47,745 nt of DNA, taken from an uncultured Candidatus Peribacteria bacterium (GTDB taxonomy: Bacteria > Patescibacteriota > Gracilibacteria > UBA4473). The notes below the pieces were generated by a model. It ran no database searches. It was not told where the DNA came from and was given only the letters and a program-made list of their open reading frames with translations. The stretch covers positions 1 to 47,745 of the forward strand of contig CAYXXA010000002.1 in NCBI GenBank assembly GCA_964468965.1, given 5' to 3'. A program made the translations under genes and the position numbers. Numbering within the stretch: the first letter of the stretch is position 1; each line of letters opens with the position of its first letter. Positions 1,778 to 38,239 of the stretch are shown here, in pieces.

Positions 1778-2311
1778 ATGAAAACAGCACTTTCTACTAT
1801 TTCCGAAAAGGTAACCAAAAATTGGAAGTGGTTATTATTATTTTTATTTCTACCAAGTTTAAATGCTTGTACACCATCAGTTGGTCTTATTATTCCCTTC
1901 GCACTAGAAGTTAACAACCGAGATTTTTATACAGAAGTTCCTCACCTTATAGTTTTTTTAACTTTTACTTTACTGAATTTTGGGCTCTTTTTGTTTTTAG
2001 TAGAACGAATAAAAAAGTACTTCCAAAATCATATTATTCAATTACAGATAATTTTATGCTACTTTGCCTACGAATCCATAATCTCTGTATGGATGCTCCT
2101 CGACTATGAATGGTTCCACTGGCATGGTATTTTTGATGTTGATCGGTGGTTACCTTTTACACTAAATTATCAAATAGCAATGTTACCTATAAAATTGAAA
2201 ATTGATTCTTCTCCAATATTCCCATCCATAGGACAGATTATATGGCTTGCAACTATTTTTACCTTTTCCCTCTTTCTAGAAAAAATTATAAAACTCATAA
2301 CTCGTAAATAA
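1778..2311 (+). CDS. Hypothetical polytopic membrane protein or lipoprotein candidate
   Basis: The 177-aa ORF abuts the purQ stop (TAGATG) and the purH start (TAAATG). It has a hydrophobic N-terminus with a lipobox-like LNAC and several hydrophobic segments. No family was recognised. Confidence 0.5.
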   Translation: MKTALSTISEKVTKNWKWLLLFLFLPSLNACTPSVGLIIPFALEVNNRDFYTEVPHLIVFLTFTLLNFGLFLFLVERIKKYFQNHIIQLQIILCYFAYESIISVWMLLDYEWFHWHGIFDVDRWLPFTLNYQIAMLPIKLKIDSSPIFPSIGQIIWLATIFTFSLFLEKIIKLITRK

Positions 2312-3829
2312 ATGAAAACAGCACTTTTATCGGTATCGGACAAAACAGGTATTATTGAATTTGCACAGGGTTTGCAAAAACTCGGTTATCACATTCTATC
2401 AACGGGGGGAACATATAAAAAACTAGAGGGGAGCGTTAAAAACCTTCAGGAAGTTTCTGACTTCACGGGATTTCCAGAAGGGCTTGATGGACGGATAAAA
2501 ACGCTTACCCCTCAAATATTTGGCGGTATTCTCAATCTGAGAAACAATGAAAATCATCAAAAATTCTGTAATGCAAATGGTTTGCAAAACATCGATATTG
2601 TCTGTGTAAACCTCTATCCGTTCAAATCCACCTATGAAGATTCAACAAAATCTTTTGCAGATAAAGTTGAAAATATTGATATTGGAGGACCTTCAATGAT
2701 TCGAGCGGCAGCCAAAAACTATGAATACTGCCTACCAGTCGTTGATCCAAGTGATTATGCAAATATATTGCAAAAACTCGAAAGTGAGGGAGATTTGGAT
2801 ATCCCCTTTCGAAAAGAGTTGGCGACAAAGGTTTTTGAGATGACGGCTCACTATGATTTACTTATTGCGAAGTTTTGGGCGGAAGAAACCAAAACCACTG
2901 AAGAAAAAGGGCAACTCCGATACGGAGAAAATCCACACCAAACAGCGGTTACCCTCATTGACCCATTTGCTTCTGGGCCACTCCTTGTTGGAGCGAAGCA
3001 ATTGAATGGAAAACCGCTTTCTTATAATAACTTTGGCGATTCAGCTGGTGCTTTGGAACTGGCATTATCTTTTGACTCAAAGGATGGAGCTTTTGCTACC
3101 ATTATTAAGCACGCCACGCCTTGTGGTGCGGCTATTGGAGATACTATTTCCGAGGCCTTCAATCGAGCCTACGAGGCCGATCCACTTTCCGCCTTCGGTG
3201 GTGTAATCGCACTAAACCAAACCTGTGATAAAGCTACCGCCGAAAAGATAACCAGTTTCTTCAACGAAATTGTCATGGCTCCTGCTTATGAGGATGAGGC
3301 TCTTGCCATTTTAAAGACAAAGAAAAACCTCAGAGTTTTAGAAATTCCGAACTTCTACGACGGACAAACTCGAGAGATGGTTCTTAAAAAAGTACGAGGT
3401 GGTACTCTCGCTCAAGAACTTGATATCGAGCTTCCTGATTTTGATAATCTGGAAATACCAACCAAAAAACAACCAACCGAAGCTGAAAAAATAGACCTTG
3501 AAATTGCCTGGAAAATTGTAAAAATTGTAAAATCGAATGCGATTGTCGTCGTCAAAGACGGCATCATGATCGGAAAAGGTGGTGGACAAACTTCTCGTGT
3601 CGAAGCGATGGACATTGCTCTCACTCACGCAGGTAAAAATGCAAAAGGAGCAGTGATTGCCTCAGATGCCTTCTTTCCTTTCCCCGATAGTGTCGAATCA
3701 GCGGGATCAGCAGGGATTACAGCCATCATTCAGCCTGGTGGCTCAAAAGGCGACCAAGGGGTTTTTGATAAATGTGATGAATTAGGAATTGCTACCGTAT
3801 TGACAAAAATGAGAAGTTTCTTACATTGA
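2312..3829 (+). CDS. purH: Bifunctional AICAR transformylase / IMP cyclohydrolase
   Basis: N-terminal MGS-like domain (ALLSVSDKTGI...STGGT), GGPSMIRAAAKN, and the C-terminal AICARFT region (...ASDAFFPF...IIQPGGS). Confidence 0.95.
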   Translation: MKTALLSVSDKTGIIEFAQGLQKLGYHILSTGGTYKKLEGSVKNLQEVSDFTGFPEGLDGRIKTLTPQIFGGILNLRNNENHQKFCNANGLQNIDIVCVNLYPFKSTYEDSTKSFADKVENIDIGGPSMIRAAAKNYEYCLPVVDPSDYANILQKLESEGDLDIPFRKELATKVFEMTAHYDLLIAKFWAEETKTTEEKGQLRYGENPHQTAVTLIDPFASGPLLVGAKQLNGKPLSYNNFGDSAGALELALSFDSKDGAFATIIKHATPCGAAIGDTISEAFNRAYEADPLSAFGGVIALNQTCDKATAEKITSFFNEIVMAPAYEDEALAILKTKKNLRVLEIPNFYDGQTREMVLKKVRGGTLAQELDIELPDFDNLEIPTKKQPTEAEKIDLEIAWKIVKIVKSNAIVVVKDGIMIGKGGGQTSRVEAMDIALTHAGKNAKGAVIASDAFFPFPDSVESAGSAGITAIIQPGGSKGDQGVFDKCDELGIATVLTKMRSFLH

Positions 3830-12345: not shown

Positions 12346-13812
12346 ATGAAAACAATTCCACTCGGTCTCACCTTTGATGATGTTCTCATGGTACCTCAGT
12401 ACTCTCAAATATTACCGAAAGAGGTAAGCCTAAAAACGCATTTTACTCGAAATATTAAGCTCAATATTCCATTGGTTTCTGCTGCGATGGACACCGTAAC
12501 GGAAGAAAAAATGGCAATTATGATGGCGCTTCATGGGGGAATTGGAGTGATTCATAAAAACTGTGATCCTGATACTCAGGCGGCTATGGTAGCAAAAGTA
12601 AAACGGTTTGAAAATGGATTTATCCGAGAACCTATGGTTCTATCGCCAACAGATAAAATTGCCGATGCGATTGTTATTAAGCAAGAACACGGGTTTAAAG
12701 CTATTCCGGTGACCTCAGATGGAACACTTGAGGGGAAAGTGGTCGGACTGCTTACTCGAAATGATTACCTCAAAAATAAACATGACGATTGTCTTGTTGG
12801 CGATCGAATGACGCCTTTTGAAGAACTATTGATTGCACGAGCCCCTATTGATCTTAGTACGGCTAATGACGTACTAGAAGAGTCTCGACATTCAAAATTA
12901 TTGATTTTAAATAAAGATGATACGCTTCATGCCCTTGTTACTCGTCGAGATATTGAGAAAAATGAAAATTTCCCCAACTCGGTAAAAGATAAAGGAAAAC
13001 GTTTGGTGGTAGCGGCAGCCGTTGGACCAGCACATAATATGGAAGAACGGGTTAAAAAACTGATTGATGCTCGAGTGGATGTTCTTGTCGTTGACACCGC
13101 ACACGGTCACTCAAAGGGTGTAATTAATACCGTGAAGTATATCAAGAAAAATTATCCAAAGACCGATGTACTGGCTGGAAACATTGCTAGTCCTCAGGCG
13201 GCAGAGGCTTTAATTAAAGCTGGCGCCGATGGAATTAAGGTCGGAATTGGACCTGGGTCTATCTGTACAACACGAATTATCGCGGGAGTAGGCGTCCCAC
13301 AATTTACGGCTATTCAGAATGTAGCAGCGGTTGCTAAACGACATAATATTCCAGTGGTGGCAGATGGGGGAATCAAATATTCTGGCGATGTGGCAAAGGC
13401 TTTGGCGATTGGGGCAAGTACGGTAATGATCGGTTCGCTCTTGGCTGGTACAGAAGAATCTCCGGGTGAAATTATCTATTCGGAAGGACAGACTTTCAAA
13501 TATTATCGTGGGATGGGGTCTATTGCCGCAATGACAAAAGGTGGCAAAGAACGATATGCACAGTCAAATGTTGCAGATGATAAGCTTGTTCCAGAAGGCA
13601 TTGAGGGAAAAATTCTACTCAAAGGTCCAGCCACTAATGAAATATTTCAGCTTTGTGGAGGACTAAGAAGCTCAATGGGATACTCTGGAGCGAAAAATTT
13701 AGCAACGTTTCAAGAGGTTGTTGAATTTGTTCAGATTACCTCTGCTGGTTTACGAGAATCGCATCCACATGATGTTGGTATTCTGAAAGATGCTCCAAAT
13801 TACAGAGGATAA
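12346..13812 (+). CDS. guaB: IMP dehydrogenase
   Basis: [14 protein letters not shown], a CBS-domain insert, the catalytic loop [11 protein letters not shown], and GGIKYSGD. Confidence 0.95.
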
Positions 13813-16581: not shown

Positions 16582-18771
16582 TTACCGTTTAATCGTTGCC
16601 AGTGTTTCAAACCCTGGTGGAGGAAGACTACTTACCTTCCCATCTACTCTAATAACAAACGCATTAAGGTTCCGATCGCATGGAGTTGAAAAACAATCTG
16701 CCTCATTGGTCATACTCCCTCCACCAGCCGGGTAAAGTGGCTGAAATTGTCGAACAAAATGAAGATCATAAGTCTTTGCATGTGTCTCTGTTGTTGTTCC
16801 ATTCGTCTCTCCTTCCACGCCCCACGGATTACTATAGGTAGAGGGGAATAAGCTACCACCAACTGTGTTATGCGTCATCAACGTTCCTTTAAGAAGAAGC
16901 TGATTGGCGGCCGTCAGTGGCAGTGATCCATTGTTATTCGCCGCAACCGAAATGCTGTTGAAAGAAACTGCATCCGCGATCGACATAAATCCACCTTCCG
17001 CAAAGTAAGTTCCTACGATATTCTTAACCCGATTTCTTACAAAAATGTTTCCCTTTTCTGGATACGGATCAATCGCATCATTTATTAGTATAAATCCAAA
17101 GGAATCACTTTCACTGGCATAAGCCAAGTCCCCACTGATGAGGAGGTTTCCATTCCGGATAACCAGTGTATTCTTCCCTGCAGGCAAATTAAACGTTCCA
17201 CCGTTAAATCCAATTTCAACATCACCATCGACAACAGCTACATGACTGTTATTATACCAGTTTGTATCAAATTGCCCTCCTAATTGGACGGGAATTCCCC
17301 GTGTAATACTCGCCGCATTTTGAGAAAGCACTTCTCTTGCATCTTTGAAGTTTAATCCACCTAAAAGAAGGTGTTCTGTATCTGAAAAAGTTTGCTGAGA
17401 TGTTTTACTTGATAGGACATCCCCCTCGATGGAAACCCCTATCATTCGAGTGCCAATAGAATCGTCATTCAGATCATCTACTTCTCCCGCTGTTACTCCA
17501 AATCCAGACCCCAAAGCTCCACTTGGGTAGCGAATAATACCAATAGGAGTATCATATTCAACCTCTGTTGAAAAAGAGAGATCGTGACTAAACTTTGGAT
17601 CGGGACCCGTTAGCGTTAGTTCAAGATTTCGAATATAGGTTTCACCAGATGGATCCCGTTGTGTATTAGGCGTTGGATTATCTTTGAAAAATGCCTGACT
17701 TGCCGCTGTAAAACTAAGAGCTGTTGGTAAGTTATGATAGTGGAGGTATGTTCTTAAAAAGGTTTTGACTGGTGGGCCCGCTGTCCCTCCAGGATTAGCA
17801 GGTGTCAAAGAACGAAAAAGCTTCATTGGCGTTGGGACATCTACAATAAACTCCGAGTTATTAAGCAATGAAAGCAATGTTTTTGCTGGTGGTCGAAATC
17901 GCACATCTGGAGAATACTGACCATACTGAAAGGTAACCGTATTCCCCATATCAAGATTCCCATTAGCATCAATTGTAAATAATTCAATATTAAGATCTAA
18001 TTGCTTTGCTTCGTTTTTTCCTAGGTGTGCAACAACCTCACTTGTTGAAGGTGCCCAAGCTGAAAGCTGAAACTGTTTTGAAACTGTTGCATCATTGGAT
18101 AGCGTAAAAGTGGTAGGCGTACTACTTGTTCCAATAGCACCTAAACCAGAGAGTCTTAATCCATCACGAAAAGATACCCCTCGATTAGCGTCTAGCGGAT
18201 AATCTGAATCTGAGTAAATTTGAGCATTTTTCCCCGCCAATTGCGTTACAGGATTTCCATACTTATCTTTAACCTTAAAAATAAAGGTACAAATATCTGT
18301 CCCATTAGCAATATTAACCCCTGATTCTCCCGTTGTCTGGCAACCACTTACACTGAATTCAGATTGATCTTGATTTGGCGTACCAGCTTTTACCGTAAAA
18401 TTTGAAACAACTGGATCTGAAGTATTCTCTGCAAAATCTTTTAGGGTAATAGTTACTGTATATTCTCCAGCTTGATGAAAACAGTTATCTATCACTGGAG
18501 CACTATTTTCGTCAGAATATCCCAGTGTATCCAAATCTTCTACCACACAATGATCCTTAGTACCAACGCAATTATCAGGTGAAATTGCGAAACAAGAAAA
18601 GGCTGGAACCTCAGAATTTTCAGCCGTAAATTCTACCTGCATTGTTGACTCTTCCCAATCAACTCCTGTACCTTCTACCTCGACTTGAGCAGCCATGGTT
18701 ATTCCAGAATAAAAACTTAGTACCAAAAACCATACTAGATTTTTCCGAAAGCCACTTAATATTTTTTTCAT
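16582..18771 (-). CDS. Large secreted protein (729 aa), Ig-like N-terminal region and beta-helix-like C-terminal region; function unknown
   Basis: Signal peptide MKKILSGFRKNLVWFLVLSFYSGITMAAQ. A Big_1/invasin-like stretch reads ...FIFKVKDKYGNPVTQLAGKNAQIY.... The C-terminal region is repetitive and Gly/Asn-rich, e.g. NTLVIRNGNLLISGDL.... Confidence 0.6.
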   Translation of the reverse strand: MKKILSGFRKNLVWFLVLSFYSGITMAAQVEVEGTGVDWEESTMQVEFTAENSEVPAFSCFAISPDNCVGTKDHCVVEDLDTLGYSDENSAPVIDNCFHQAGEYTVTITLKDFAENTSDPVVSNFTVKAGTPNQDQSEFSVSGCQTTGESGVNIANGTDICTFIFKVKDKYGNPVTQLAGKNAQIYSDSDYPLDANRGVSFRDGLRLSGLGAIGTSSTPTTFTLSNDATVSKQFQLSAWAPSTSEVVAHLGKNEAKQLDLNIELFTIDANGNLDMGNTVTFQYGQYSPDVRFRPPAKTLLSLLNNSEFIVDVPTPMKLFRSLTPANPGGTAGPPVKTFLRTYLHYHNLPTALSFTAASQAFFKDNPTPNTQRDPSGETYIRNLELTLTGPDPKFSHDLSFSTEVEYDTPIGIIRYPSGALGSGFGVTAGEVDDLNDDSIGTRMIGVSIEGDVLSSKTSQQTFSDTEHLLLGGLNFKDAREVLSQNAASITRGIPVQLGGQFDTNWYNNSHVAVVDGDVEIGFNGGTFNLPAGKNTLVIRNGNLLISGDLAYASESDSFGFILINDAIDPYPEKGNIFVRNRVKNIVGTYFAEGGFMSIADAVSFNSISVAANNNGSLPLTAANQLLLKGTLMTHNTVGGSLFPSTYSNPWGVEGETNGTTTETHAKTYDLHFVRQFQPLYPAGGGSMTNEADCFSTPCDRNLNAFVIRVDGKVSSLPPPGFETLATIKR

Positions 18772-18792: not shown

Positions 18793-21700
18793 CTAAGCAC
18801 TTCCAATCGCTTGTCGCCTTTTTCCACAGTTATTTTCTTGCATAAAAGGCACTCCTGCTGGTCTAGTTGAAGTAGCAGGGGACCAACTCGATGGATCATC
18901 CACACAATCTCCACGCCCTAGTATTCCTGGCAGACAAAGTTCTAAATTTCGTTGATCACAAGCTGGAAAACAAATTCCTGTGTCATAAATATAACCTGGT
19001 TCACAATAACTCGCACAAGATCCACCAGCTTCTAAATTTTGTTCTCCTCTGTCAACCGCGGACGTTCCACAAGTTGAAAATTTCTCTATACAATAAGATC
19101 CATTATTAAATAAAGGAGAAATAATACCGTCTCCGGTGTACCCACAAGCATCATTATTGTAGTCCGCCGTACTGTTCCCCGCTTGAGTACTCGAAAGTGA
19201 ACGTCGCAATTCCTTGACTGTTGTCAACACAAAAGCTTGACTCTCGCTTGCCCGAACTAATCCTGATGGAAGTGTTCTTGTTGGGACTTCGGGCTTTACC
19301 GCATCGTACCAATCGATATCGTTAGCGTGTGTTTCTGGATCAATGCAATTTCCCGCTTTATCACAAACTTTTATTTTTCGAGTTCCTGTCGTATCACAAA
19401 TTGTAGAATCATCACAGAAATTCCCCCGAACGTGAATCTCGTAGTTTGACTTCATACAATTACTCCCTAATGACTCATTACAAGTAAAATTCAGCAAAAT
19501 GCCTTCCGCTTTTGATTTTGAAAGTGATTTTACACTTTTAATCCGTTGTTGAAGATCGGGAATACTATCGGGAATCGTTGAGTCCTCTAAAGTTGTTATT
19601 GTTGCCTGAATTGACTCAATTTCAGAAGTTAGCGCTGATACTTGTGTTGTCAATAAGTCAATATCCACATTAAGAGCTTGTAATTCCGCTGTAATCGCTG
19701 AAATATCATGAGAAACCGTTGTATAGTCACTGAGTAAGTGATTTCGCAGAGCACATAGACTATTAACTTCCATTAATGACATAAGTGAATCTCTCCTTAT
19801 TGCAAAAAGTTGCATACAAGATAGTGGTTTACTAAAGGGATTTATTTCCATGAAAGAACTATTTATCTGTTTTATTTTAAAAGCAATAATCCCTTTTTTT
19901 GTTATTAATTTATCTTTTTTCATGGACTTATAGGGTTCTATTCTATTCTTCTTATCAGATAAAATATCTGCTTTTTGATTTCGCTCAGACTCTTTGGAAA
20001 GGAGTGTTGCTCTCGCCGCATCACGAGTATTTATTTTAGTCGCTAATAAAGTTTCTGCCGCCTCAACACGCGGTTTGTGAAGCCTTTGCTGGGGATTGTT
20101 ATCGTATTTGAAGTTTAAAATAGGTGATGTTTGATCGATCTTTAGTGTTCGCGCTGTTGAACCATACCAAACCCCTCCAGAACAAGATACCCCAGTCCCT
20201 CCTATACAGAAGTACACCTCATAATCCCAATCTCCATCCGTCAAAAAAGTTTTTAGTGGTGTCGCGTCAACAAGTGTGTCTGCCTCCGTATTCAGCTCAA
20301 ACTCAAAACGAACATTATCGGTAACTGAAAACCCATTCCCCGTTGAGGCATTAAAATCTCCTGTCATATCAATTGCCACGTACCCCTCCTGTGTTCCCTT
20401 TGTCAAATGAACAAGTGTAAATCCTGGTTTTGTATTAGCTGGTGCAAACAATGGTGCCGAATCTAAAAGCAAACTACTCAGAATACTCCCACTCATCCGT
20501 ACTTTAGCATAATTCCCAAACCCTGCATTGGGGACTCCTGTTGTATCTGGATTAGGATTAAAAAACCAAGACGTTACAGGATACTTCCACCACAACTGTG
20601 CACCTACTCCAGACGTCGGGAAAGCCAGTGCCTGACTTGTAACAAAAAAAACCCCTACAAAAATCATAAAGAATCTTCGGTGTAGACGAAGCCATCCATT
20701 AATAGCAATTAAAAAGAGTATTAACGCCCCCCCTCCATAAAGAAACCAGTCTTTTCGCACCCACCATTTAACTTTTTCAATTTTCCCCTCGAGTGCTTTA
20801 CTTTTCTTTTGCGCCTCAATGCCATCCAATATACTTGGGTCGATAAACATTTTTCGTTCTAGATGTTTCTGTCCAATAACTTTCCCCTTTTTACTTAGCT
20901 CAATGTCAGCCACAAAAATACTAGCCTTTTGTGTTAAAGTAAAAGTAAATCCCCCCTTAAAATTCCCGTTTTTCGCTACCTTCAGCAACTTCTCATCTTT
21001 CAGCTCTGCCACTTCTTCATTTTCCCATTTTTGCACCACTCTTATTCTAGCTTTAATATCTCCCACAGGAAGAGTTGTTCCAGCAAAAACAAAACTCACT
21101 TTTTTCGATTTTAAATCTTCCTCAAGAAGATCGAAATAGTTAATTTGAGCAAAAAGCCCCTCAACATAAAAGTGCCCCTCAAGAGTCCCTCCACTTTTTT
21201 CACCATTTTTATCCTGTAAAAAAGCCTTAATCGTATAAACCTGTGGAGTAGCTGGTTCCGGGATAGTGATATGAACAATCGACGAAGCAGAAGATAAGGC
21301 CCCCCCTTTAACCGTTTTTTGCAACTTTTTACCTGTACGGTCGTATAATTCTACCACTGGTGTAAACAAAGAAGTATCGGCTTCTGTCTCAACTAAAAAG
21401 GAAACTATTCGATGGCCATCTACTAACTTTATTGACAAGGCGGATATCTTTGTTTTTGTGAAGTTTTCTTGTCGAGGAACTTTTTGCTCTACGCGCCCCA
21501 TAAGTCTGTCTCGTTTTCCATAAATCTCAAAAGTAAGAACTGTTTCTGGTGTAATCTTGACGTCCTTTATATCAAGGTCAAAGCGAAGTTTTCCTTGTTT
21601 TATAGCGGATAAGTCCACTTTCTCTTCAAAAAAAATAGCCCCAGCCTTATCCCTTAACTGAAATCGAGCCTTCGTTATTGTCGCCTGAGGGAGTCCAAAA

Positions 21701-21909
21701 ACACGACCAACGAGTTGACCAGCTTTTGTCTGTCGAAAAAAATCTAACTTCATACTACTAACCGTAATGGAATCCATCCAAACCACTTTACTCGTCTCTG
21801 GAGGTTTAAAATCCCTGATAATCAAACTCTTAGCAGACCCATTGTCAATGATAAAAAGAAGTCCCAAGAAAATTAAATAAATACACTGTTTTATTTTTGC
21901 ATATAACAT
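18793..21909 (-). CDS. Giant membrane-tethered surface protein (1038 aa); function unknown
   Basis: N-terminal signal/anchor, a ~370-aa beta-rich region, a central hydrophobic hairpin (WFLYGGGALILFLIAINGW-LRLHRR-FFMIFVGVFFVTSQALA), a coiled-coil-like stretch, then a Cys-rich C-terminus. It lies 21 nt upstream of the 729-aa gene. Confidence 0.6.
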   Translation of the reverse strand: MLYAKIKQCIYLIFLGLLFIIDNGSAKSLIIRDFKPPETSKVVWMDSITVSSMKLDFFRQTKAGQLVGRVFGLPQATITKARFQLRDKAGAIFFEEKVDLSAIKQGKLRFDLDIKDVKITPETVLTFEIYGKRDRLMGRVEQKVPRQENFTKTKISALSIKLVDGHRIVSFLVETEADTSLFTPVVELYDRTGKKLQKTVKGGALSSASSIVHITIPEPATPQVYTIKAFLQDKNGEKSGGTLEGHFYVEGLFAQINYFDLLEEDLKSKKVSFVFAGTTLPVGDIKARIRVVQKWENEEVAELKDEKLLKVAKNGNFKGGFTFTLTQKASIFVADIELSKKGKVIGQKHLERKMFIDPSILDGIEAQKKSKALEGKIEKVKWWVRKDWFLYGGGALILFLIAINGWLRLHRRFFMIFVGVFFVTSQALAFPTSGVGAQLWWKYPVTSWFFNPNPDTTGVPNAGFGNYAKVRMSGSILSSLLLDSAPLFAPANTKPGFTLVHLTKGTQEGYVAIDMTGDFNASTGNGFSVTDNVRFEFELNTEADTLVDATPLKTFLTDGDWDYEVYFCIGGTGVSCSGGVWYGSTARTLKIDQTSPILNFKYDNNPQQRLHKPRVEAAETLLATKINTRDAARATLLSKESERNQKADILSDKKNRIEPYKSMKKDKLITKKGIIAFKIKQINSSFMEINPFSKPLSCMQLFAIRRDSLMSLMEVNSLCALRNHLLSDYTTVSHDISAITAELQALNVDIDLLTTQVSALTSEIESIQATITTLEDSTIPDSIPDLQQRIKSVKSLSKSKAEGILLNFTCNESLGSNCMKSNYEIHVRGNFCDDSTICDTTGTRKIKVCDKAGNCIDPETHANDIDWYDAVKPEVPTRTLPSGLVRASESQAFVLTTVKELRRSLSSTQAGNSTADYNNDACGYTGDGIISPLFNNGSYCIEKFSTCGTSAVDRGEQNLEAGGSCASYCEPGYIYDTGICFPACDQRNLELCLPGILGRGDCVDDPSSWSPATSTRPAGVPFMQENNCGKRRQAIGSA

Positions 21910-21994: not shown

Positions 21995-23515
21995 ATGCGA
22001 TATAGAAACAATCGACGGCGGTCCATGTATCATCGAAAAAAAAGGAAGAACCCAATTCCTTTGATTCTATTTTTTATTATTATCGGCTTTATTTTATGGT
22101 CCATTTTCCAAATAGTGGCTTCTGTTTTTTCTAGTATCAGCACAGAACCTTCCAGTGCTGAAGTTCAGATTATAAAAGGGCAAGCCTCGTTCCGCCTCCC
22201 AGACAACTCTAACTGGAGCCTTGCTTTTTCCGAACAAAAACTCTGGCCTAATGAATCTATTCGTACTAACGAAAAAGGAAAAGCTTCTCTTGATATATTT
22301 GACAGTAATACCATTTTCCTAGCCCCTAATACAGAAGTCCAAGTCTTAAACCTTGAAGAAAAAAGTAATCAGGAAAAAATTGTACAGTTAAAACTCAATA
22401 GTGGAGAGATTTGGGCAAAAACCTCTGGCGATGCTTTTAAAGAAAAGAATTCTCAATTTCAAGTTCAGACTGATCGCCTAAATTTATACACTAAATCCGC
22501 CACCTTTGACCTCTCCCACAATGCAGAAGAAGATATCGTTCGACTTATTAAGGGAGACCTTACAATCAATATTCTCAATGGAGAAGAAAAAGATAAACAC
22601 CCAATCTCAGTTACTCTTGGTGTTGGTCAAGAGGTAATCATTAATGATGAAACTATTGCACAATTACAACAAAACAAAGAAATACTTACTATTATTGATA
22701 CAGGCTTCATTGAATCAGAGTGGCATTTGGATAATCTTGAAGTCTTCTTTCCACAGGAGGCACAGAAGATAAAAACACGTATTGAATCACAAAAAACAAT
22801 ACCAAGTAATAATCCTGACTCCTCTGCTAACGCCTCCTCCGAAGTTGAATCGCCTACCGTTATCACTCCAAAAAACGGAATCACTATTCCCTCCTCCGAA
22901 AACCGAATTACCATAGAAGGAACCGCCCCCTTAAATGCTTTTCAGATAGAGGTAAATGGATTTGCCCTCACGCGGTTTACTCCTGGTGACAAAAAGTGGC
23001 GCTACTTCGCCGGAGTGGAATGGGGAACACTCGTTCACGGAGAAAACACCTATTCTATCGTTACAATCACCCAAGATGGTAAACGTTCGATACCAACCGT
23101 ACTCAAGATAAACTACGAAGGTAGTAATTTTATAAAAAAAACACCCCTAAAAACAGCCTCAATTACAGAAACTCTCCCCAAAGAAGTAACTCAATCCACT
23201 ACTCCTAGCAATTTTTCCGATATCGTTATTACTAGCCCTGAAACCTTTGATGCTAATGGTATTCATCAAACCGCTCAACCTGCTATTAGTATAAAAGGAA
23301 CCGTTGACCCCCAAACTCAATCGGTAGAAGTTAACCGATATAAGCTTAAACGGTTTAGTCCGGGCGATACAAAATTTTCCTATACCGCCGTTAACAACGG
23401 ACTTCACGGGAACATGAAAGTTGGCGAAAATATTTATCACATTACGGCTTTCGGACCCAATGGGAAAAAAGCCTCAACTACAGTAAAAATCAACTATACG
23501 CCAGTTGATCTTTAA
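21995..23515 (+). CDS. Membrane-anchored FecR-like protein with two C-terminal Ig-like repeats
   Basis: Basic N-terminus plus a TM helix (RKKRKNPIPLILFFIIIGFILWSIF). A FecR-like stretch reads IKGQASFRLPDNSNW...IRTNEKGKASLDIFDSNTIFLAPNTEVQVLNL. Two homologous ~72-aa modules each end in KINY. Confidence 0.55.
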   Translation: MRYRNNRRRSMYHRKKRKNPIPLILFFIIIGFILWSIFQIVASVFSSISTEPSSAEVQIIKGQASFRLPDNSNWSLAFSEQKLWPNESIRTNEKGKASLDIFDSNTIFLAPNTEVQVLNLEEKSNQEKIVQLKLNSGEIWAKTSGDAFKEKNSQFQVQTDRLNLYTKSATFDLSHNAEEDIVRLIKGDLTINILNGEEKDKHPISVTLGVGQEVIINDETIAQLQQNKEILTIIDTGFIESEWHLDNLEVFFPQEAQKIKTRIESQKTIPSNNPDSSANASSEVESPTVITPKNGITIPSSENRITIEGTAPLNAFQIEVNGFALTRFTPGDKKWRYFAGVEWGTLVHGENTYSIVTITQDGKRSIPTVLKINYEGSNFIKKTPLKTASITETLPKEVTQSTTPSNFSDIVITSPETFDANGIHQTAQPAISIKGTVDPQTQSVEVNRYKLKRFSPGDTKFSYTAVNNGLHGNMKVGENIYHITAFGPNGKKASTTVKINYTPVDL

Positions 23516-29347: not shown

Positions 29348-29578
29348 TCAACGCCCAAATAATGGACCAAAAAAGGAAATAAGCAATGGCTGTAATCCCC
29401 CCATTGCCCACATGAAGGATAGAATTGAAAGTCCAAGTCCAAAGAGTTTTACAAAAGTGTAAGTCCCACCTTGTAGAAATAGTTTTTCGGCAAAGTCAAT
29501 CTCTCCCGTATACTCTACAATATTCCTGGCATAAACAATCATAGCAATCCCAATCGGAATCAAAATCCAAGCTAACAT
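29348..29578 (-). CDS. Hypothetical small membrane protein (76 aa, 2-3 TM segments)
   Basis: Hydrophobic segments MLAWILIPIGIAMIVY and LFGLGLSILSFMWAMGGL. It is divergent from the pilin-like genes. Confidence 0.4.
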   Translation of the reverse strand: MLAWILIPIGIAMIVYARNIVEYTGEIDFAEKLFLQGGTYTFVKLFGLGLSILSFMWAMGGLQPLLISFFGPLFGR

Positions 29579-29687
29579 GATAATACTTAATAAATCGAAA
29601 AGAGCTAAACGCCAACAGATTCTAAAAACAAAAATACTTTTGTCAAAAATAATTGCGGAAAGTTTCTTTTTTCGCTATAATAAGGGA

Positions 29688-30698
29688 ATGGTGAAATATA
29701 TACTAGCCCTTCTTATCCTTTCTGGAAGTATTATCACAGAAACTTCCTTTGCCGATGATGCTTCGGGGAGTTATGACGATATAATGCCAAACTGGGAAAT
29801 AGGACAAACAACATCCAATTCAACCACACCAAAAAACAATACTAAAACAAGTACCTCCTCAACAAAGAGCAGAAAAACTCTCAAACTTCCAGATATAAAG
29901 AACTACGATCACGCTATTAAAAATAATCGCATCATAAAAACTATCGGTGATGGACAAGGACGCGGTGGTATTAAGTATGCCTTTAGAAATTTAGTAGGGC
30001 CAGACAGTGCTATAATCCCTGTCATTAACTATATTATGGCTGCCATTGCCCTTATCTGGCTCAGTATTCTTGGTGCTAAGTTTATATTTTCTCGAGGGGA
30101 AGAGGAAAACTTATCAAAGTATAAACAACAATTTGGATGGATTATTCTAGGACTACTCATTATCTCCATCGCTGAATATGTGGCATTCAATGTCTTTGAC
30201 CCCGTTTCAACTGGGGCTTTGGATACCAATGATGGCGTTAATCAGTTTGTTGAGATTATCCGGAAGATTATTACCTTCTTAAAATATCTCGTTGGAGGGG
30301 TTGCCCTTCTCGCTGGAGTACGGTCTGGGTTTGCCCTCATTGTTGGTGGAGGTGAAGATGACGTCATTCAAAAAGAAAAAGAGTTTGTAAAAATATTCCT
30401 TTTTGCCATTGCTCTAATTATCATGGCTGAATCACTTGAGCGATGGATTGATCTCAGTGCCGGTGGTGTTGGTATTCAGGCCGAAGGTCTAGTTATCGAA
30501 GCTGTAGGAATTATAAACTTTATTCTCACTTTTATCGCTGGAGCAGCTCTCTTTATGTTAGTCCTTTCAAGTCTTTACTACATTATTAGTTTTGGAGATG
30601 AAGAGATAACTGGACGTGCCAAAAAAATGATTATCGCTAGCATTGTAGGACTTATTATTGCCTATTCAGCTTATACTATCGTTCGATTTCTTGTTTAA
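29688..30698 (+). CDS. Secreted membrane protein with three tandem VirB2/TrbC-type (T4SS pilin-like) modules
   Basis: Signal peptide MVKYILALLILSGSIITETSFA. Three TM-loop-TM modules have acidic loops: FSRGEEENLSKYKQ, VGGGEDDVIQKEKE and ISFGDEEITGRAKKMIIASIVGLIIAYSAYTIVRF. I preferred the ATG at 29688 over 29577, which would overlap the divergent gene. Confidence 0.55.
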   Translation: MVKYILALLILSGSIITETSFADDASGSYDDIMPNWEIGQTTSNSTTPKNNTKTSTSSTKSRKTLKLPDIKNYDHAIKNNRIIKTIGDGQGRGGIKYAFRNLVGPDSAIIPVINYIMAAIALIWLSILGAKFIFSRGEEENLSKYKQQFGWIILGLLIISIAEYVAFNVFDPVSTGALDTNDGVNQFVEIIRKIITFLKYLVGGVALLAGVRSGFALIVGGGEDDVIQKEKEFVKIFLFAIALIIMAESLERWIDLSAGGVGIQAEGLVIEAVGIINFILTFIAGAALFMLVLSSLYYIISFGDEEITGRAKKMIIASIVGLIIAYSAYTIVRFLV

Positions 30699-30703
30699 AT
30701 TAT

Positions 30704-31618
30704 ATGTCAAAAATATTTCTCAGCTTCGTTATTTCTATTATGAGTATCAGCTTTGTCTGCGAAACAAGTTTTGCCGTTGTCGATTCGCGAAGTGTCTTTA
30801 GTGGTAATCGAGAGCTTCTTGGAGAACAATTAGATATCAAAGATTACAGTAACATTAGCATTGACGGTCGATCCTGTCAGAATCGTGAAATCCGTTGTAT
30901 TATAGAAAGTATCATTGAGTACCTCAAAAAGTTACTGCTTCCTATTGCTATCGTTCTTTTAATGTGGTCTGGAATCTATCTTCTCTTAGTTCGAACCGAT
31001 GAAGAAGCCTTTAAAAAAAGAAAAAACGAAGTCTTTGGAATCTTTGCTGGATTTATGATCATTCTCATATCGGCAAGCCTCATTGACAATGTTTTCTTTG
31101 GAACACAAGGAGAGATCCTTCAAGGAGCAGATACTTCATGGTTTGCCCAATCAGCACTTATTCAGATCAATGGGTTGGTAAATTTTTTACTAACTTTTGT
31201 TGTCCCTGTCGGCGTTCTTGTTTTAATTGTCAGTGCTTTCCAGCTCATCATTGGTGGTGGTGATGATGAACAAATGAGTAAAGCTAAAAAGAAAATTATA
31301 TATGTCATTATCGGAATTGCCGTTATCCTTCTAACCCAGTCTATTGTTGGTGCACTGACCGGAGGGGAAGAAATAAAACCTATCAATGCAAAACCTTACC
31401 TTATCATTCTTGTCAGCTGGATAAACTGGATTCTTGGATTTATTGGAGTATTAGGTGTCTTAGCTATCGTCTGGGCTGGAATTTCTATGATCGCCCACTT
31501 TGGTGATGAAGAACGAGTAGAAAGTGCCAAGAATATTATCAAATTTGTTGCTATTGGACTTATTATTGCCTTCTCCTCTTGGACTATTATTCGGTTTTTT
31601 CTTACAGCAGGAAACTAA
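30704..31618 (+). CDS. Paralogous secreted membrane protein with three tandem VirB2/TrbC-type pilin-like modules
   Basis: Signal peptide MSKIFLSFVISIMSISFVCETSFA. Module loops are LVRTDEEAFKKRKN, IGGGDDEQMSKAKKKIIYVIIGIAV and AHFGDEERVESAKNIIKFVAIGLIIAFSSWTIIRF. It has the same architecture as the upstream gene. Confidence 0.55.
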   Translation: MSKIFLSFVISIMSISFVCETSFAVVDSRSVFSGNRELLGEQLDIKDYSNISIDGRSCQNREIRCIIESIIEYLKKLLLPIAIVLLMWSGIYLLLVRTDEEAFKKRKNEVFGIFAGFMIILISASLIDNVFFGTQGEILQGADTSWFAQSALIQINGLVNFLLTFVVPVGVLVLIVSAFQLIIGGGDDEQMSKAKKKIIYVIIGIAVILLTQSIVGALTGGEEIKPINAKPYLIILVSWINWILGFIGVLGVLAIVWAGISMIAHFGDEERVESAKNIIKFVAIGLIIAFSSWTIIRFFLTAGN

Positions 31619-31785: not shown

Positions 31786-32559
31786 ATGATCACAATTATC
31801 ACGGTCAATTATCGAAATTTTAACGCACTTAAGCAGTGTTGGAAAAGCTTAAAAAAACAAAACTTTAAAGATTTTGAATGGATTATTGTCGATAATAATT
31901 CTCCACGGGAAGAGTCTAAAGTCTTAGAAGCTTATTTTAAAAATGAGGCAGGAGTCTTTATTATTCCACTGAATAAAAATATCGGATTCGGAGGCGCTTC
32001 CAATCAGGGAGCACTATTTGCTAAAGGAGAAATATTAGCTTTTATGAATCCAGATATTGAAATTAAGGACAACTGTTTTTCATCGCTAATAACTACCCTA
32101 AAAACAAAGAAAAACATAGGTATTGTCGTTCCTAAATTACTAGGAAAAAATGGGGACTATCTGGGCAATGGTCGCCAGTTTCCAACGGTCTTAGAACTTT
32201 TTGGAAGACGGTTAGTACTAAATCCCGAAACCCAAACTATAGAACGTAAAAAAGCATTTCCCATTGATTGGGCACAAGGAAGTTTTTTAGTGATGAAGAA
32301 GTCTTTCTTTAAAAAACTAGGCGGTTTTGATCCGAATTTTTTTCTTTTTATGGAAGATACCGACCTTTGTCGTCAGTGTTGGAGACAGCATAAATCTGTT
32401 ATGCTTGACCCAAAAGCAACAGCATTACATGGAGAACAACGACTCTCTGGTGGACATGTTTTAACGGCTATTTTTAAGAAAACATTTTGGATCCATTTGG
32501 TTTCAATGGTGAAGTATTTCCAAAAATACAAAGGGAAGTCTAATCCACGAAAATCATGA
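31786..32559 (+). CDS. Family 2 glycosyltransferase
   Basis: ITVNYRN...IIVDNNS...GFGGASNQG...MEDTDLC is the typical GT-A/GT2 DxD-type pattern. Confidence 0.85.
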   Translation: MITIITVNYRNFNALKQCWKSLKKQNFKDFEWIIVDNNSPREESKVLEAYFKNEAGVFIIPLNKNIGFGGASNQGALFAKGEILAFMNPDIEIKDNCFSSLITTLKTKKNIGIVVPKLLGKNGDYLGNGRQFPTVLELFGRRLVLNPETQTIERKKAFPIDWAQGSFLVMKKSFFKKLGGFDPNFFLFMEDTDLCRQCWRQHKSVMLDPKATALHGEQRLSGGHVLTAIFKKTFWIHLVSMVKYFQKYKGKSNPRKS

Positions 32560-33188
32560 AAATTATTTGTCCGATTCGTCCTCGAAACTTTAAAGAATTT
32601 AAAAATTTGGTTTCTAAAATTAATAACCGTGCTGATATTATTGAAGTATGGATTGATCAAGTTTCAGACGACTTCTTTAAAAAATTTAAGACTTTTGAAA
32701 AAGGGAAAATGAAATTTTTGGCGGTTTGTAAACAGATTCAAGAAAAAGGACATTTTGTAGGAAACTCAATAGATCGAGTTGAGCAATTAAAGAAGTTTTT
32801 GTTGTCAGGAGGACGCTTTGTGGATCTTGATATTACACAGAACAAAAAAGAAGCCATTGAAAAAATTGATACTAAAAAGTTAATCTTGAGTTTTCACGAT
32901 TTCAATGGTGTTTCGGATAATCTAAAGGAAATATTGCAGTCGATGCGAGCACTTAATCCTGTGATTTACAAGTTCGCGGTAACGGTTAACACGAGAAGTG
33001 ATTTAGACAAGTTCATGGCTTTTATACAAAAATTCCCACCTCACAAAAAAGCTATTTTTACAACAATGGGAAAGTTTGGAAAAGAAGGACGAAAACAAAT
33101 TGGCGAAAAATCTTGGGGACAATTTTTCGCTCTTGATAAAGAATCAACAACAGCTTCTGGACAAAGAACAGTCGAAGATATTTTCTAG
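32556..33188 (+). CDS. aroD: Type I 3-dehydroquinate dehydratase
   Basis: By-eye alignment to E. coli AroD: DIIEVWID, FVDLDI, the catalytic His in LILSFHDFNG, the Schiff-base Lys in IYKFAV, and ...TASGQ. It has an ATGA start/stop overlap with the GT2 gene. Confidence 0.75.
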   Translation: MKIICPIRPRNFKEFKNLVSKINNRADIIEVWIDQVSDDFFKKFKTFEKGKMKFLAVCKQIQEKGHFVGNSIDRVEQLKKFLLSGGRFVDLDITQNKKEAIEKIDTKKLILSFHDFNGVSDNLKEILQSMRALNPVIYKFAVTVNTRSDLDKFMAFIQKFPPHKKAIFTTMGKFGKEGRKQIGEKSWGQFFALDKESTTASGQRTVEDIF

Positions 33189-37153: not shown

Positions 37154-38239
37154 ATGATGCATAATACCTTTGGTTCTTTTTTTCGAATTACAAGTGCGGG
37201 AGAGAGTCATGGACAGGCTAATGTCGTGATCATTGATAATTGTCCGCCAAATATTGAATTGACCGAATCAGATATTCAGACAGATTTGGACCGACGAAAA
37301 CCAGGGCAATCAGAGATTACCACACCTCGAAAAGAAAGTGATAAGTGTGAGATTTTATCAGGGGTTTTCGAAGGAAAGACAACGGGAACAGCCTTAGCGG
37401 TGATTGTCCGAAATGAAAATCAGCGATCGCAAGATTATGGAAACATTAAAGATATTTTTCGCCCCTCTCATGCGGATTTTGGATATTTTTCTAAATACGG
37501 AATACGTGATTATCGAGGTGGCGGTCGGAGTTCCGCTCGTGAGACAATTGCTCGTGTGATAGGAGGTGCTGTGGCTAAGAAAGTTTTAAAACAAAAATAC
37601 CCAAACCTTGAAATTTATGGATTTACTCGGTCGGTGGGAAAAGATTTTTTTGAAACCGTCGACAAAGACTATATTGAAGAAAACCCTTTAAGAATGGCTT
37701 CTAAAGAAGATTTTGCAAATATATTGCAAAAGGTGGAATCAGCTCGAGACAGTGGTGATTCTCTCGGTGGAACGATTGAAGTTCGAGTGGAAAACCCTCC
37801 TGTGGGACTGGGAATGCCGGTTTTTGGAAAGTTGGAAGCTGAACTTGCAAAAGCAATGATGTCGGTTCCTGCGGTAAAGGGGTTTGAAGTTGGAGAAGGC
37901 TTTGGACTTTGCGAAAAACTTGGTAGCGAGGCGAATGACAGCTTTGTTGCAAATAGTTCGCAAAATGAAATTCATACCAAACGAAATGCCAATGGTGGTA
38001 TTTTGGGCGGAATTTCCACGGGAGATGATATTTGGTTTCGTGTTGGGATTAAGCCGACTTCTTCAATCTCACTTCCTCAAAAATCAGTCAATAAAAAAGG
38101 GGAATCTGTTGATTTAGTCGTTACGGGACGACATGACCCGATTTTATTACCACGAGCAATCCCCATCTTGGAAGCGATGACAGCACTCGTTTTACTCGAT
38201 CACGTGATGATGGATCAGGGGCAAAATAAATTATTTTAG
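37154..38239 (+). CDS. aroC: Chorismate synthase
   Basis: FRITSAGESHG, RPGQSE, RGGGRSSARET and GRHDP signature motifs. Confidence 0.95.
   Translation: MMHNTFGSFFRITSAGESHGQANVVIIDNCPPNIELTESDIQTDLDRRKPGQSEITTPRKESDKCEILSGVFEGKTTGTALAVIVRNENQRSQDYGNIKDIFRPSHADFGYFSKYGIRDYRGGGRSSARETIARVIGGAVAKKVLKQKYPNLEIYGFTRSVGKDFFETVDKDYIEENPLRMASKEDFANILQKVESARDSGDSLGGTIEVRVENPPVGLGMPVFGKLEAELAKAMMSVPAVKGFEVGEGFGLCEKLGSEANDSFVANSSQNEIHTKRNANGGILGGISTGDDIWFRVGIKPTSSISLPQKSVNKKGESVDLVVTGRHDPILLPRAIPILEAMTALVLLDHVMMDQGQNKLF

What the first reader, a model, noticed from the sequence alone, without database searches (positions are those of the whole stretch)
29348..31618. Two tandem paralogues each built from three VirB2/TrbC-type pilin modules, with no other T4SS genes nearby
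**Seen in sequence**
- Both proteins (29688-30698 and 30704-31618) start with Sec signal peptides ending in the same ETSFA motif.
- Each then contains three repeats of a TM helix, a short acidic loop plus Lys patch, and a second TM helix.
- Example loops are ...YYIISFGDEEITGRAKKMIIASIVGLIIAYSAYTIVRF and ...MIAHFGDEERVESAKNIIKFVAIGLIIAFSSWTIIRF.

**Established knowledge**
- This module matches the single-module ~100-aa 'type IV secretion system pilin' (TrbC/VirB2-like) proteins common in Patescibacteria and Gram-positive conjugative systems.

**Why it is unusual**
- Covalent triplication is present in both paralogues, and the two genes sit in tandem.
- No VirB4, VirB6, VirD4 or relaxase gene lies within the window.
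- The neighbours are a divergent 76-aa membrane protein, a GT2 glycosyltransferase and two tRNAs.

**Inference**
- These could be a polyprotein-like pilin precursor or a membrane scaffold rather than a classical pilin.
Basis: partly seen in the sequence, partly recalled or inferred. Interest (0 to 1): 0.65.

Follow-up and report, generated by a model that had tools for sequence, protein, structure and literature searches.

The report
Paired genes of triple-fused pilin-like hairpins
Two adjacent genes in a tiny uncultivated (Peribacteria-type) bacterium each encode three fused copies of the small membrane hairpin that normally forms conjugation-type pili as single units, and this fused pair, plus a small partner gene, is conserved across the lineage but I found no description of it.

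Summary
Gene A (29688-30698) and gene B (30704-31618) each encode a signal peptide followed by three VirB2/TrbC-type hairpin modules. Both score above Pfam's cut-off for PF18895 T4SS_pilin with three matched stretches; B also passes PF04956 TrbC and NCBIfam NF045849.

The repeats are true homologues. Module profiles match at E 1e-5 to 1e-21, and reversed controls fail.

This is a conserved system, not a one-off:
- All 10 independent related loci (Ca. Peribacteria, Gracilibacteria, Altimarinota) have an A-type gene immediately followed by a B-type gene.
- In 9 of the 10 loci with upstream sequence held, a 74-79-aa membrane protein gene (C, 29348-29578) lies directly upstream.
- Of the 178 proteins examined, 147 have 3 modules and 30 have 4-8. 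Some sit inside classical single-module pilin gene arrays.

No T4SS gene lies in the window or within 10 kb of the pair in any related locus examined.

Best reading: covalently concatenated pilin-like subunits forming an A/B hetero-complex in the membrane or a surface filament. Function is inferred only. It is a new variant of a known kind.

The parts
29348..29578 (-). Gene C: a 76-aa small membrane protein, divergently transcribed from A. It is the conserved partner of the A-B pair.
   Evidence: ORF. Orthologues are 47-79% identical. tblastn finds it directly upstream of A in 9 of the 10 loci that have upstream sequence. It has no Pfam or NCBIfam family and is not a pilin module (hhalign 36%).
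29619..29646 (-). Promoter-like site for gene C: TTGACA, 16-nt spacer, TAGAAT (11 of 12 consensus matches).
   Evidence: Consensus scan. This is a pattern match only.
29676..29681 (+). TATAAT hexamer 6 nt upstream of A's ATG. It could be a -10 element for A-B, implying a very short leader.
   Evidence: Read directly from the sequence. Inference only; the scan did not report it because the -35 hexamer is weak.
29688..30698 (+). Gene A: 336 aa, with a signal peptide, a Ser/Thr/Asn-rich extracellular spacer, and three pilin-like hairpin modules.
   Evidence: The start codon is supported by the alignment with 11 homologues. 16 homologues were found.
29688..29753 (+). Predicted signal peptide of A (MVKYILALLILSGSIITETSFA).
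   Evidence: Hydropathy, and aligned with the N-terminal hydrophobic segments of orthologues. No dedicated signal-peptide predictor was run.
30012..30185 (+). Module A1 (aa 109-166).
   Evidence: Module HMM. TM pair.
30246..30437 (+). Module A2 (aa 187-250).
   Evidence: Module HMM.
30492..30692 (+). Module A3 (aa 269-335). It gives A's best Pfam PF18895 match and is the closest counterpart of B3.
   Evidence: A3-B3 E 1e-21.
30704..31618 (+). Gene B: 304 aa, with a signal peptide, a short Cys-containing extracellular segment, and three pilin-like hairpin modules.
   Evidence: 18 homologues. The AF2 model shows three helical hairpins.
30704..30775 (+). Predicted signal peptide of B (MSKIFLSFVISIMSISFVCETSFA).
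   Evidence: Hydropathy and alignment.
30890..31105 (+). Module B1 (aa 63-134), followed by the invariant FFGxxGE linker motif.
   Evidence: invariant F131 F132 G133 G136.
31154..31363 (+). Module B2 (aa 151-220). It gives the best TrbC (PF04956) match.
31400..31603 (+). Module B3 (aa 233-300). It gives the best PF18895 match and contains the HFGDEE...K loop.
   Evidence: The single-module AF2 model has pLDDT 90.3 and is a helical hairpin.

Best explanation
**What it is**
A and B are members of the VirB2/TrbC pilin superfamily (the Patescibacteria-type PF18895 branch). In each, three hairpin modules are joined covalently into one 6-TM polypeptide behind a single cleavable signal peptide.

**Predicted topology (inferred)**
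- The N-terminus is outside the cell.
- The three short, fixed-length, Lys/Arg-rich hairpin loops face the cytoplasm.
- The two variable linkers and the C-terminus are outside.
- Every canonical pilin hairpin is N-out/C-out, so modules can be concatenated without internal signal peptides, and none is present.

**Evolution**
- The pair arose by duplication of an already triplicated gene.
- It is vertically inherited in the core chromosome of the Peribacteria/Gracilibacteria lineage, together with the small membrane protein C.

**Proposed mechanism (inferred, not shown)**
- A and B co-insert in the membrane and form a hetero-complex contributing 3+3 non-equivalent hairpins, possibly with C.
- This complex would serve as the pilin or pilus-base building block of the lineage's dispersed, non-conjugative Patescibacteria-type T4SS-like surface apparatus.
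- The variable N-terminal segments would be displayed on the outside.
- Covalent fusion would fix the order and stoichiometry of neighbouring hairpins. From my own knowledge, fused c-subunit hairpins do this in some rotary ATPases.
For: **Shown**
- Pfam and NCBIfam matches lie above curated cut-offs with three stretches each.
- Internal repeat homology holds against reversed controls.
- AF2 shows three helix-loop-helix hairpins in B. A single module gives a high-confidence hairpin, pLDDT 90.3.
- A and B align collinearly at 32% identity over 236 aa.
- The A-then-B order holds in all 10 independent loci, and C is adjacent in 9 of 10.
- Each of the six module positions has its own conserved signature.
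- Loops have a fixed length of 15-19 aa and are K+R-dense. Linkers are 20-49 aa and K+R-poor.
- GC content matches the flanks, and the neighbouring housekeeping genes are syntenic.

**Links to pilin biology**
- Multi-module relatives sit inside classical single-module PF18895 arrays: L017 has one 7-module gene among 7 single-module genes.
- One relative lies 3.7 kb from a VirD4-type ATPase gene, with cell-wall-binding genes in between.
- Others are followed by PKD-domain surface proteins or a pilin+PKD fusion.
- Module number varies from 3 to 8, with adjacent modules 70-89% identical in the long forms. This is as expected for quasi-equivalent, polymer-like units.

**Literature**
- VirB2-like pilin arrays are widespread in Patescibacteria and essential in Southlakia epibionticum (PMC12102498, PMC12857230).
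Against: - No VirB4, VirB6, VirD4 or relaxase gene lies in the 47.7-kb window or within 10 kb of the pair in any related locus examined.
- I could not check whether the same genomes encode VirB4 at all.
- No filament formed by any PF18895 protein is reported in the papers I read (PMC12857230 speaks only of a 'potential to elaborate conjugative pili'), so 'pilin' is a name by homology.
- Fold searches are uninformative because a helical hairpin matches anything. There is no sequence match to solved pilins.
- The full-length AF2 model has pTM 0.45, so inter-module packing is unknown.
- The modules within A and B are old and divergent (22-35% identity). That fits a fixed polytopic membrane protein as well as it fits a filament subunit.
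Confidence: 0.5

Rival explanations
1. **Static membrane complex.** A, B and C form a 12-14-TM hetero-complex that stays in the cytoplasmic membrane. It would act as a channel, platform or scaffold, for example a functional stand-in for the VirB6-type polytopic subunit, and would never polymerise into a filament.
For: - VirB6 homologues are reported as absent or undetectable in the class Gracilibacteria (PMC12102498).
- Each protein has 6 TM segments and an extracellular N-domain.
- The six module positions are ancient, non-equivalent and individually conserved, like the helices of a fixed polytopic protein.
- A strictly conserved small membrane partner C is present.
Against: - There is no Pfam hit to TrbL/VirB6 or to any transporter family above threshold.
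- Relatives vary from 3 to 8 modules through recent tandem duplication, which is hard to reconcile with a fixed channel architecture.
- Those relatives lie inside ordinary pilin arrays.
Confidence: 0.25
2. **Polyprotein precursor.** Each protein is cleaved in the extracellular linkers after membrane insertion, releasing three single-hairpin pilins in fixed 1:1:1 stoichiometry.
For: - Each even-numbered TM helix runs in-to-out and is followed by an exposed linker, which is the geometry a signal peptidase needs (inference).
- From my own knowledge, canonical pilins such as TrbC are proteolytically matured.
Against: - I saw no conserved small-x-small cleavage motif at the ends of TM2 or TM4 across orthologues (alignments).
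- Linker 1 of B has an invariant FFGxxGE motif, suggesting a structural role.
- In 7-module relatives the HMM envelopes are separated by only 2-18 residues.
Confidence: 0.08
3. **T4SS-independent surface anchor.** The triple hairpin is merely a membrane anchor or oligomerisation device that displays the variable N-terminal extracellular segment (an adhesin or S-layer-associated function), unrelated to any secretion ATPase.
For: - N-terminal regions vary widely among homologues. They extend to about 750 aa in P0056 and to more than 500 aa in the A-type gene of L005.
- A pilin+PKD fusion and PKD neighbours occur.
- There is no T4SS linkage in any locus with the pair.
Against: - In the window itself the N-terminal regions are short (about 40-85 aa) and low-complexity, with little to display.
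- The best-conserved parts are the hairpin loops predicted to face the cytoplasm, which points to an intracellular partner.
Confidence: 0.12

Closest known systems
Patescibacteria VirB2-like pilin gene arrays (PF18895/PF04956), e.g. the 6-gene array of Southlakia epibionticum ML1 (PMC12102498; PMC12857230)
   Same: - Same Pfam families and the same phylum.
- Tandem, highly divergent paralogues: A and B are 32% identical, against the reported array mean of about 25%.
- Sec signal peptide, chromosomal location, often unlinked to virB4, and no relaxase.
   Different: - The known arrays are separate genes of one hairpin each. Here three hairpins are fused per polypeptide.
- The arrangement is a fixed A/B pair with a conserved small partner gene C.
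- The papers I could read do not mention fused forms.
TrbC/VirB2 conjugative pilins of diderm T4SS (RP4 TrbC, Agrobacterium VirB2; Pfam PF04956)
   Same: B matches PF04956 above its cut-off three times. It has the same layout of signal peptide, hydrophobic helix, short charged loop and second hydrophobic helix.
   Different: - Those pilins are single-hairpin proteins of roughly 70-120 aa, encoded inside a virB/trb operon with VirB4.
- The organism here is a monoderm, no adjacent machinery is present, and there is no sequence match to solved pilin structures.
Mbov_0395 family pilin-like conjugal transfer protein of Mycoplasma ICEs (NCBIfam NF045849)
   Same: B scores 55.1 bits against a cut-off of 40, with three stretches. 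This is also a monoderm VirB2-like protein.
   Different: - The model is 80 positions long and describes a single hairpin on a mobile element.
- B is 304 aa with three hairpins in a housekeeping chromosomal context.
- A scores below the cut-off (19.4 bits).
Covalently duplicated or triplicated c-subunit (proteolipid) hairpins of V/A-type rotary ATPases. This is an analogy from my own knowledge, not homology.
   Same: A small TM helical hairpin that normally oligomerises is fused in tandem into one polypeptide. Copy number varies between lineages, and individual hairpins diverge after fusion.
   Different: It is an unrelated family with a different assembly (closed rotor ring). No sequence or functional link was tested here.

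Membership tests
VirB2/TrbC pilin superfamily (Pfam PF04956 TrbC, PF18895 T4SS_pilin) | Profile match above the curated gathering score | tested here: met
   For PF18895, A scores 38.1 and B 81.2 bits (cut-off 26.6). For PF04956, B scores 42.3 bits (cut-off 27.9). Three stretches each.
VirB2/TrbC pilin superfamily (Pfam PF04956, PF18895) | N-terminal signal peptide followed by two hydrophobic helices joined by a short charged loop | tested here: met
   Hydropathy, AF2 hairpins and loop charge and length. The feature is present three times per protein. No dedicated signal-peptide or topology predictor was available.
VirB2/TrbC pilin superfamily (Pfam PF04956, PF18895) | Small protein carrying a single hairpin | tested here: not met
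   Three modules in each of A (336 aa) and B (304 aa).
VirB2/TrbC pilin superfamily (Pfam PF04956, PF18895) | Encoded together with VirB4 and other mating-pair-formation genes | tested here: not met
   No T4SS family hit in any of the 38 window ORFs of 90 aa or more that I scanned, nor within 10 kb of the pair in the related loci examined. This linkage is often absent in Patescibacteria. Genome-wide presence of VirB4 could not be tested.
VirB2/TrbC pilin superfamily (Pfam PF04956, PF18895) | Polymerises into an extracellular pilus | not testable with these tools
   Needs cryo-EM, cryo-ET or biochemistry. Fold search cannot discriminate helical hairpins.
Patescibacteria VirB2-like pilin arrays (PMC12102498) | Two or more PF18895/PF04956 genes in tandem in a Patescibacteria chromosome, with divergent paralogues | tested here: met
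   A and B are 5 nt apart and 32% identical. Relatives are labelled Ca. Peribacteria, Gracilibacteria or Altimarinota.
Patescibacteria VirB2-like pilin arrays (PMC12102498) | Each array gene encodes one pilin hairpin | tested here: not met
   Three modules per gene. Mixed arrays with single-module and 7-module genes do exist (L017).
NCBIfam NF045849 Mbov_0395 pilin-like conjugal transfer protein (equivalog) | Score above the curated cut-off, with a comparable length and a mobile-element context | tested here: inconclusive
   B scores 55.1 bits (cut-off 40) and A only 19.4. The model is 80 positions long against 304 aa here. The context is housekeeping genes, not an ICE.
VirB6/TrbL polytopic T4SS subunit | Profile match to TrbL/VirB6, and at least 5 TM segments with a large extracytoplasmic loop | tested here: not met
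   No TrbL/VirB6 hit at E of 1 or below. There are 6 TM segments, but they are built from three pilin hairpins. CONJScan profiles were not available.

The most novel reading that the evidence does not exclude
The C-A-B trio would encode the first known 'pre-polymerised' conjugative-type pilin. Two polypeptides would each supply three covalently linked, non-equivalent VirB2-like hairpins, assembling with the small protein C into a filament or ring. Its symmetry and subunit order would be hard-wired by the fusion, and it would perhaps also replace the VirB6 subunit that cannot be detected in this lineage. The related 4-8-module proteins, which expand by recent tandem duplication, would then be a covalent counterpart of pilin-array variation.
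Probability: 0.2. Interest if true: 0.8.

Novelty: new variant of a known kind. Interest (0 to 1): 0.55.

Why it matters
VirB2-type pilins are regarded as small single-hairpin subunits, and all solved conjugative pili that I know of are built from such units. A conserved lineage-wide pair of triple-fused pilin-like proteins, and relatives with up to eight modules, would have three consequences:

- It would constrain how any filament or membrane assembly of these proteins can be built.
- It would give structural biologists a natural 'tethered-subunit' construct.
- It would add a component to the poorly understood T4SS-like system of Patescibacteria. That system is essential in the one member tested (Southlakia epibionticum), and its VirB6 is undetectable in Gracilibacteria.

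It also matters for annotation. Domain-coverage filters and single-domain naming will either miss these proteins or label them as ordinary pilins.

Tried and rejected
**Searches that gave nothing useful**
- Foldseek of the full B model against the PDB found only generic helical proteins at E around 1.
- Foldseek of the high-confidence single module likewise found only generic hairpins (EmrA, CHMP4B, ATP synthase c and others). The fold is too simple to discriminate.
- An HMM search of the B family against PDB sequences found no pilin, only noise at E above 0.2.
- Gene C has no Pfam or NCBIfam family at E of 10 or below and is not a pilin module.

**Attempts to establish VirB4 in the lineage**
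- The supplementary tables held for PMC12102498 contain no Peribacteria or Peregrinibacteria rows in the stored part.
- No paper in the library combines Peregrinibacteria with VirB4.
- I spent the last homology search on the VirD4-type ATPase next to a 7-module relative, hoping to see hits on the 1.295 or 1.326-Mb chromosomes that carry C-A-B. Only the top 120 closest hits (70% identity or more) are listed, and none is on those contigs, so the result is uninformative.

**Ideas rejected**
- The shared ETSFA signal-peptide ending as evidence of gene conversion: rejected, because the codons differ and orthologues lack it.
- The 373-aa reading of A from 29577: rejected in favour of 29688.
- The proximity of a T4CP gene in L015 is treated as weak evidence only. 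T4CP homologues occur about twice per Patescibacteria genome and are mostly unlinked to virB4.
Full report
**1. What is in the sequence**

The region holds three ORFs. C runs 29348-29578 on the minus strand and encodes 76 aa. A runs 29688-30698 on the plus strand and encodes 336 aa. B runs 30704-31618 on the plus strand and encodes 304 aa.

A longer 373-aa reading of A from 29577 exists and is the one gene callers chose. Eleven homologues align from the MVKY start, however, and the C-A spacer of about 110 nt matches that of relatives. A's stop and B's start are 5 nt apart, so the two are almost certainly co-transcribed.

The C-A spacer contains a near-consensus promoter-like site pointing at C (TTGACA, 16-nt spacer, TAGAAT). 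It also has a TATAAT hexamer 6 nt before A's ATG. Both are pattern matches only. No terminator-like hairpin follows B.

**2. Are the three modules real?**

Kyte-Doolittle profiles give one N-terminal hydrophobic segment plus six TM-length segments in each protein.

Pfam PF18895 (T4SS_pilin) is matched above its gathering score by A (38.1 bits) and B (81.2 bits), with three stretches each. B also matches PF04956 (TrbC/VirB2) at 42.3 bits with three stretches. It matches NCBIfam NF045849 (Mbov_0395 pilin-like conjugal transfer protein) at 55.1 bits against a cut-off of 40.

I built module alignments from 18 B-family proteins. Profile-profile comparison gave M1-M2 98.3%, M2-M3 98.3% and M1-M3 96.7% probability (E 1e-14 to 3.5e-10). 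The same comparisons against reversed modules gave below 3%. The signal is therefore not hydrophobic composition.

All 15 pairs among the six A/B module positions are significant, at E 1e-5 to 1e-21. AlphaFold2 of B with its family alignment predicts helices 62-95/100-132, 145-183/188-219 and 229-264/269-301. These form three hairpins, with pLDDT 69.8 but pTM only 0.45. Module B3 alone folds as a hairpin at pLDDT 90.3.

**3. Topology (inferred)**

Across orthologues the three intra-hairpin loops have fixed lengths of 15-19 aa and are Lys/Arg-dense. The inter-module linkers vary from 20 to 49 aa and are Lys/Arg-poor.

With a cleaved signal peptide this fits an N-out, loops-in, linkers-out, C-out arrangement. 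That is the topology accepted for membrane-inserted VirB2-type pilins (my own knowledge). Each module is N-out/C-out, so concatenation needs no internal signal peptides. None is present: there are seven hydrophobic segments in total, and the gaps between module envelopes are only 9-15 aa.

**4. Organism and context**

The window is core chromosome. It carries gyrA, TyrRS, MetRS, purH, IMPDH, thyA, RNase Y, RecJ, chorismate synthase, glmS, transketolase and six tRNAs, with GC uniformly 0.35-0.42. None of the 38 ORFs of 90 aa or more that I scanned hits a T4SS family; the ORFs left unscanned overlap or nest in scanned genes.

A scan of species-representative genomes found eight loci. Their records are titled Ca. 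Peribacteria, Ca. Gracilibacteria or Ca. Altimarinota, and two lie on complete 1.30 and 1.33-Mb chromosomes.

**5. Conservation**

- B has 18 homologues and A has 16 in the 5.8-billion-protein set. None carries an informative name: the few that are named are 'hypothetical protein' or, in one case, an evidently wrong label.
- My module HMM was run over the six-frame ORFs of all loci. In each of 10 independent loci an A-type three-module gene is immediately followed by a B-type three-module gene.
- C is found directly upstream of A in 9 of the 10 loci with upstream sequence. C is 47-79% identical between lineages, at least as well conserved as A and B.
- Flanking genes are housekeeping and differ between lineages. 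mutY and ftsK lie downstream in three lineages, whereas a GT2 gene lies downstream here.
- Each of the six module positions has its own conserved signature, for example HFGDEE..K in B3, SLYY..S.G in A3, and FFGxxGE after B1.
- A and B align collinearly at 32% identity over 236 aa, and A3-B3 is by far the closest module pair.

The simplest history is an ancient triplication, followed by gene duplication, followed by vertical inheritance.

**6. The wider family**

A profile of the B family was searched against 1.84 billion cluster representatives. It gave 37,921 hits at E of 1e-3 or below (the general pilin-like superfamily), 3,135 at 1e-10, and 221 at 1e-30.

Among the 178 proteins in hand, 147 have 3 modules, 15 have 4, 4 have 5, 7 have 6, 3 have 7, one has 8, and one has 2 and looks like a fragment. 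Fused forms are thus a small minority of the superfamily; I have no exact fraction.

One 7-module protein is TSD00203.1 from a Ca. Peregrinibacteria MAG, annotated only as 'uncharacterized'.

The contexts of the long forms are informative:

- In L017 a 7-module gene sits within an eight-gene PF18895 array whose other seven genes are single-module.
- In L018 an 8-module gene is followed by a single-module pilin, a pilin+PKD fusion and a PKD protein.
- In L015 a 7-module gene lies 3.7 kb from a VirD4-type ATPase gene. DPBB_1 and peptidoglycan-binding genes lie in between, and a PKD protein lies downstream.

In these long proteins adjacent modules are 70-89% identical, so module number is growing by recent tandem duplication. 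The modules of A and B, by contrast, are only 22-35% identical to one another.

**7. Comparison with what is known**

Quiñonero-Coronel et al. 2025 (PMC12102498) report the following:

- VirB2-like pilins were detected with PF04956 and PF18895 in 1,948 Patescibacteria assemblies, near virB4 in 1,135 of them.
- There are 441 arrays of 2-11 pilin genes.
- T4CP homologues occur in 2,918 of 3,035 genomes, mostly far from virB4.
- In the class Gracilibacteria, T4SS parts are largely unlinked and VirB6 is undetectable.

The FEMS review PMC12857230 notes that the six-gene pilin array of Southlakia epibionticum is essential. It speaks only of a 'potential' to elaborate pili.

None of the papers I could search mentions pilin modules fused in one polypeptide.

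The tandem arrangement and the lack of nearby T4SS genes are therefore ordinary for this phylum. What appears undescribed is the covalent triplication, the fixed A/B pairing with C, and the existence of 3-8-module relatives.

**8. Mechanism**

Shown: homology to VirB2/TrbC-type hairpins, three per protein, and a conserved trio.

Inferred: A and B insert with their loops in the cytoplasm and form a hetero-complex, possibly with C. This complex would act as the pilin-like or pilus-base component of the lineage's dispersed T4SS-like surface machinery. I put about 0.5 on this.

The rivals are:

- a non-polymerising membrane scaffold, possibly covering for the missing VirB6 (0.25);
- a T4SS-independent anchor for surface display (0.12);
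- a cleaved polyprotein (0.08).

The variable and recently amplified module counts in relatives, and their location inside pilin arrays, favour quasi-equivalent polymer-like units. The ancient, position-specific divergence within A and B favours a fixed architecture. The data do not settle this.

**9. Limits**

- I could not establish whether the genomes carrying C-A-B encode VirB4.
- Fold and PDB sequence searches were uninformative.
- No dedicated signal-peptide or topology predictor and no multimer modelling were available.

**10. Verdict**

The 'no T4SS nearby' point is less remarkable than stated.

The finding is a real, conserved and, as far as I could find, undescribed variant of a known kind: covalently concatenated VirB2-like pilin modules in a fixed gene trio. 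It is moderately interesting (0.55). Its function is still inferred.

Noticed in passing
window 16582-18771 (-), 18793-21909 (-), 21995-23515 (+): Two large ORFs (729 and 1038 aa) have no Pfam family. They lie divergent from a FecR-domain protein about 6 kb upstream of the pilin pair. In the related chromosome L001, a FecR gene next to a 2415-aa Laminin_G_3 protein sits at a similar distance upstream of C-A-B. These are possibly giant surface proteins in conserved synteny.
   Followed up: partly
L015 3691-6288 (-): A VirD4-type coupling-protein homologue (865 aa; DUF8128, TrwB_AAD_bind, T4SS-DNA_transf) is remarkably conserved. The 120 best cluster representatives from Peregrinibacteria/Peribacteraceae are all 70% or more identical to it. 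This hints at a core cellular role rather than a mobile-element function.
   Followed up: partly
L017 9005-14262 (+): This is an eight-gene PF18895 array in which one gene has 7 fused modules and seven genes have one module each. L018 13152-14303 encodes a pilin module fused to a PKD domain.
   Followed up: partly
P0070, P0128, P0076: In 6-7-module relatives, adjacent modules are 70-89% identical. In P0070 and P0128 the last module is clearly the most divergent. This indicates recent internal tandem amplification with a distinct terminal module.
   Followed up: partly
L009 1504-2439 and 6838-8484 (+): A tyrosine integrase and a large serine recombinase lie just upstream of C-A-B in chromosome OZ246423.1. 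This suggests a mobile element inserted next to the trio in that lineage.
   Followed up: no
window 542-3829, 12346-13812, 32556-33188, 37154-38239: Genes for purine synthesis (GATase_5, purH, IMPDH) and the shikimate pathway (type I dehydroquinase, chorismate synthase) are present. From my own knowledge this is unusual for CPR bacteria; relatives of this window are labelled Ca. Peribacteria.
   Followed up: no
window 29676-29690: A perfect TATAAT lies 6 nt upstream of gene A's ATG, with AAGGGA directly abutting the start codon. This raises the possibility of a leaderless or very short-leader transcript.
   Followed up: no
L012 17710-18084 (-): A separate single-module PF18895 pilin gene (124 aa) lies 5 kb downstream of the A-B pair in a Ca. 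Gracilibacteria contig. Fused and single-module forms therefore coexist in one genome.
   Followed up: partly
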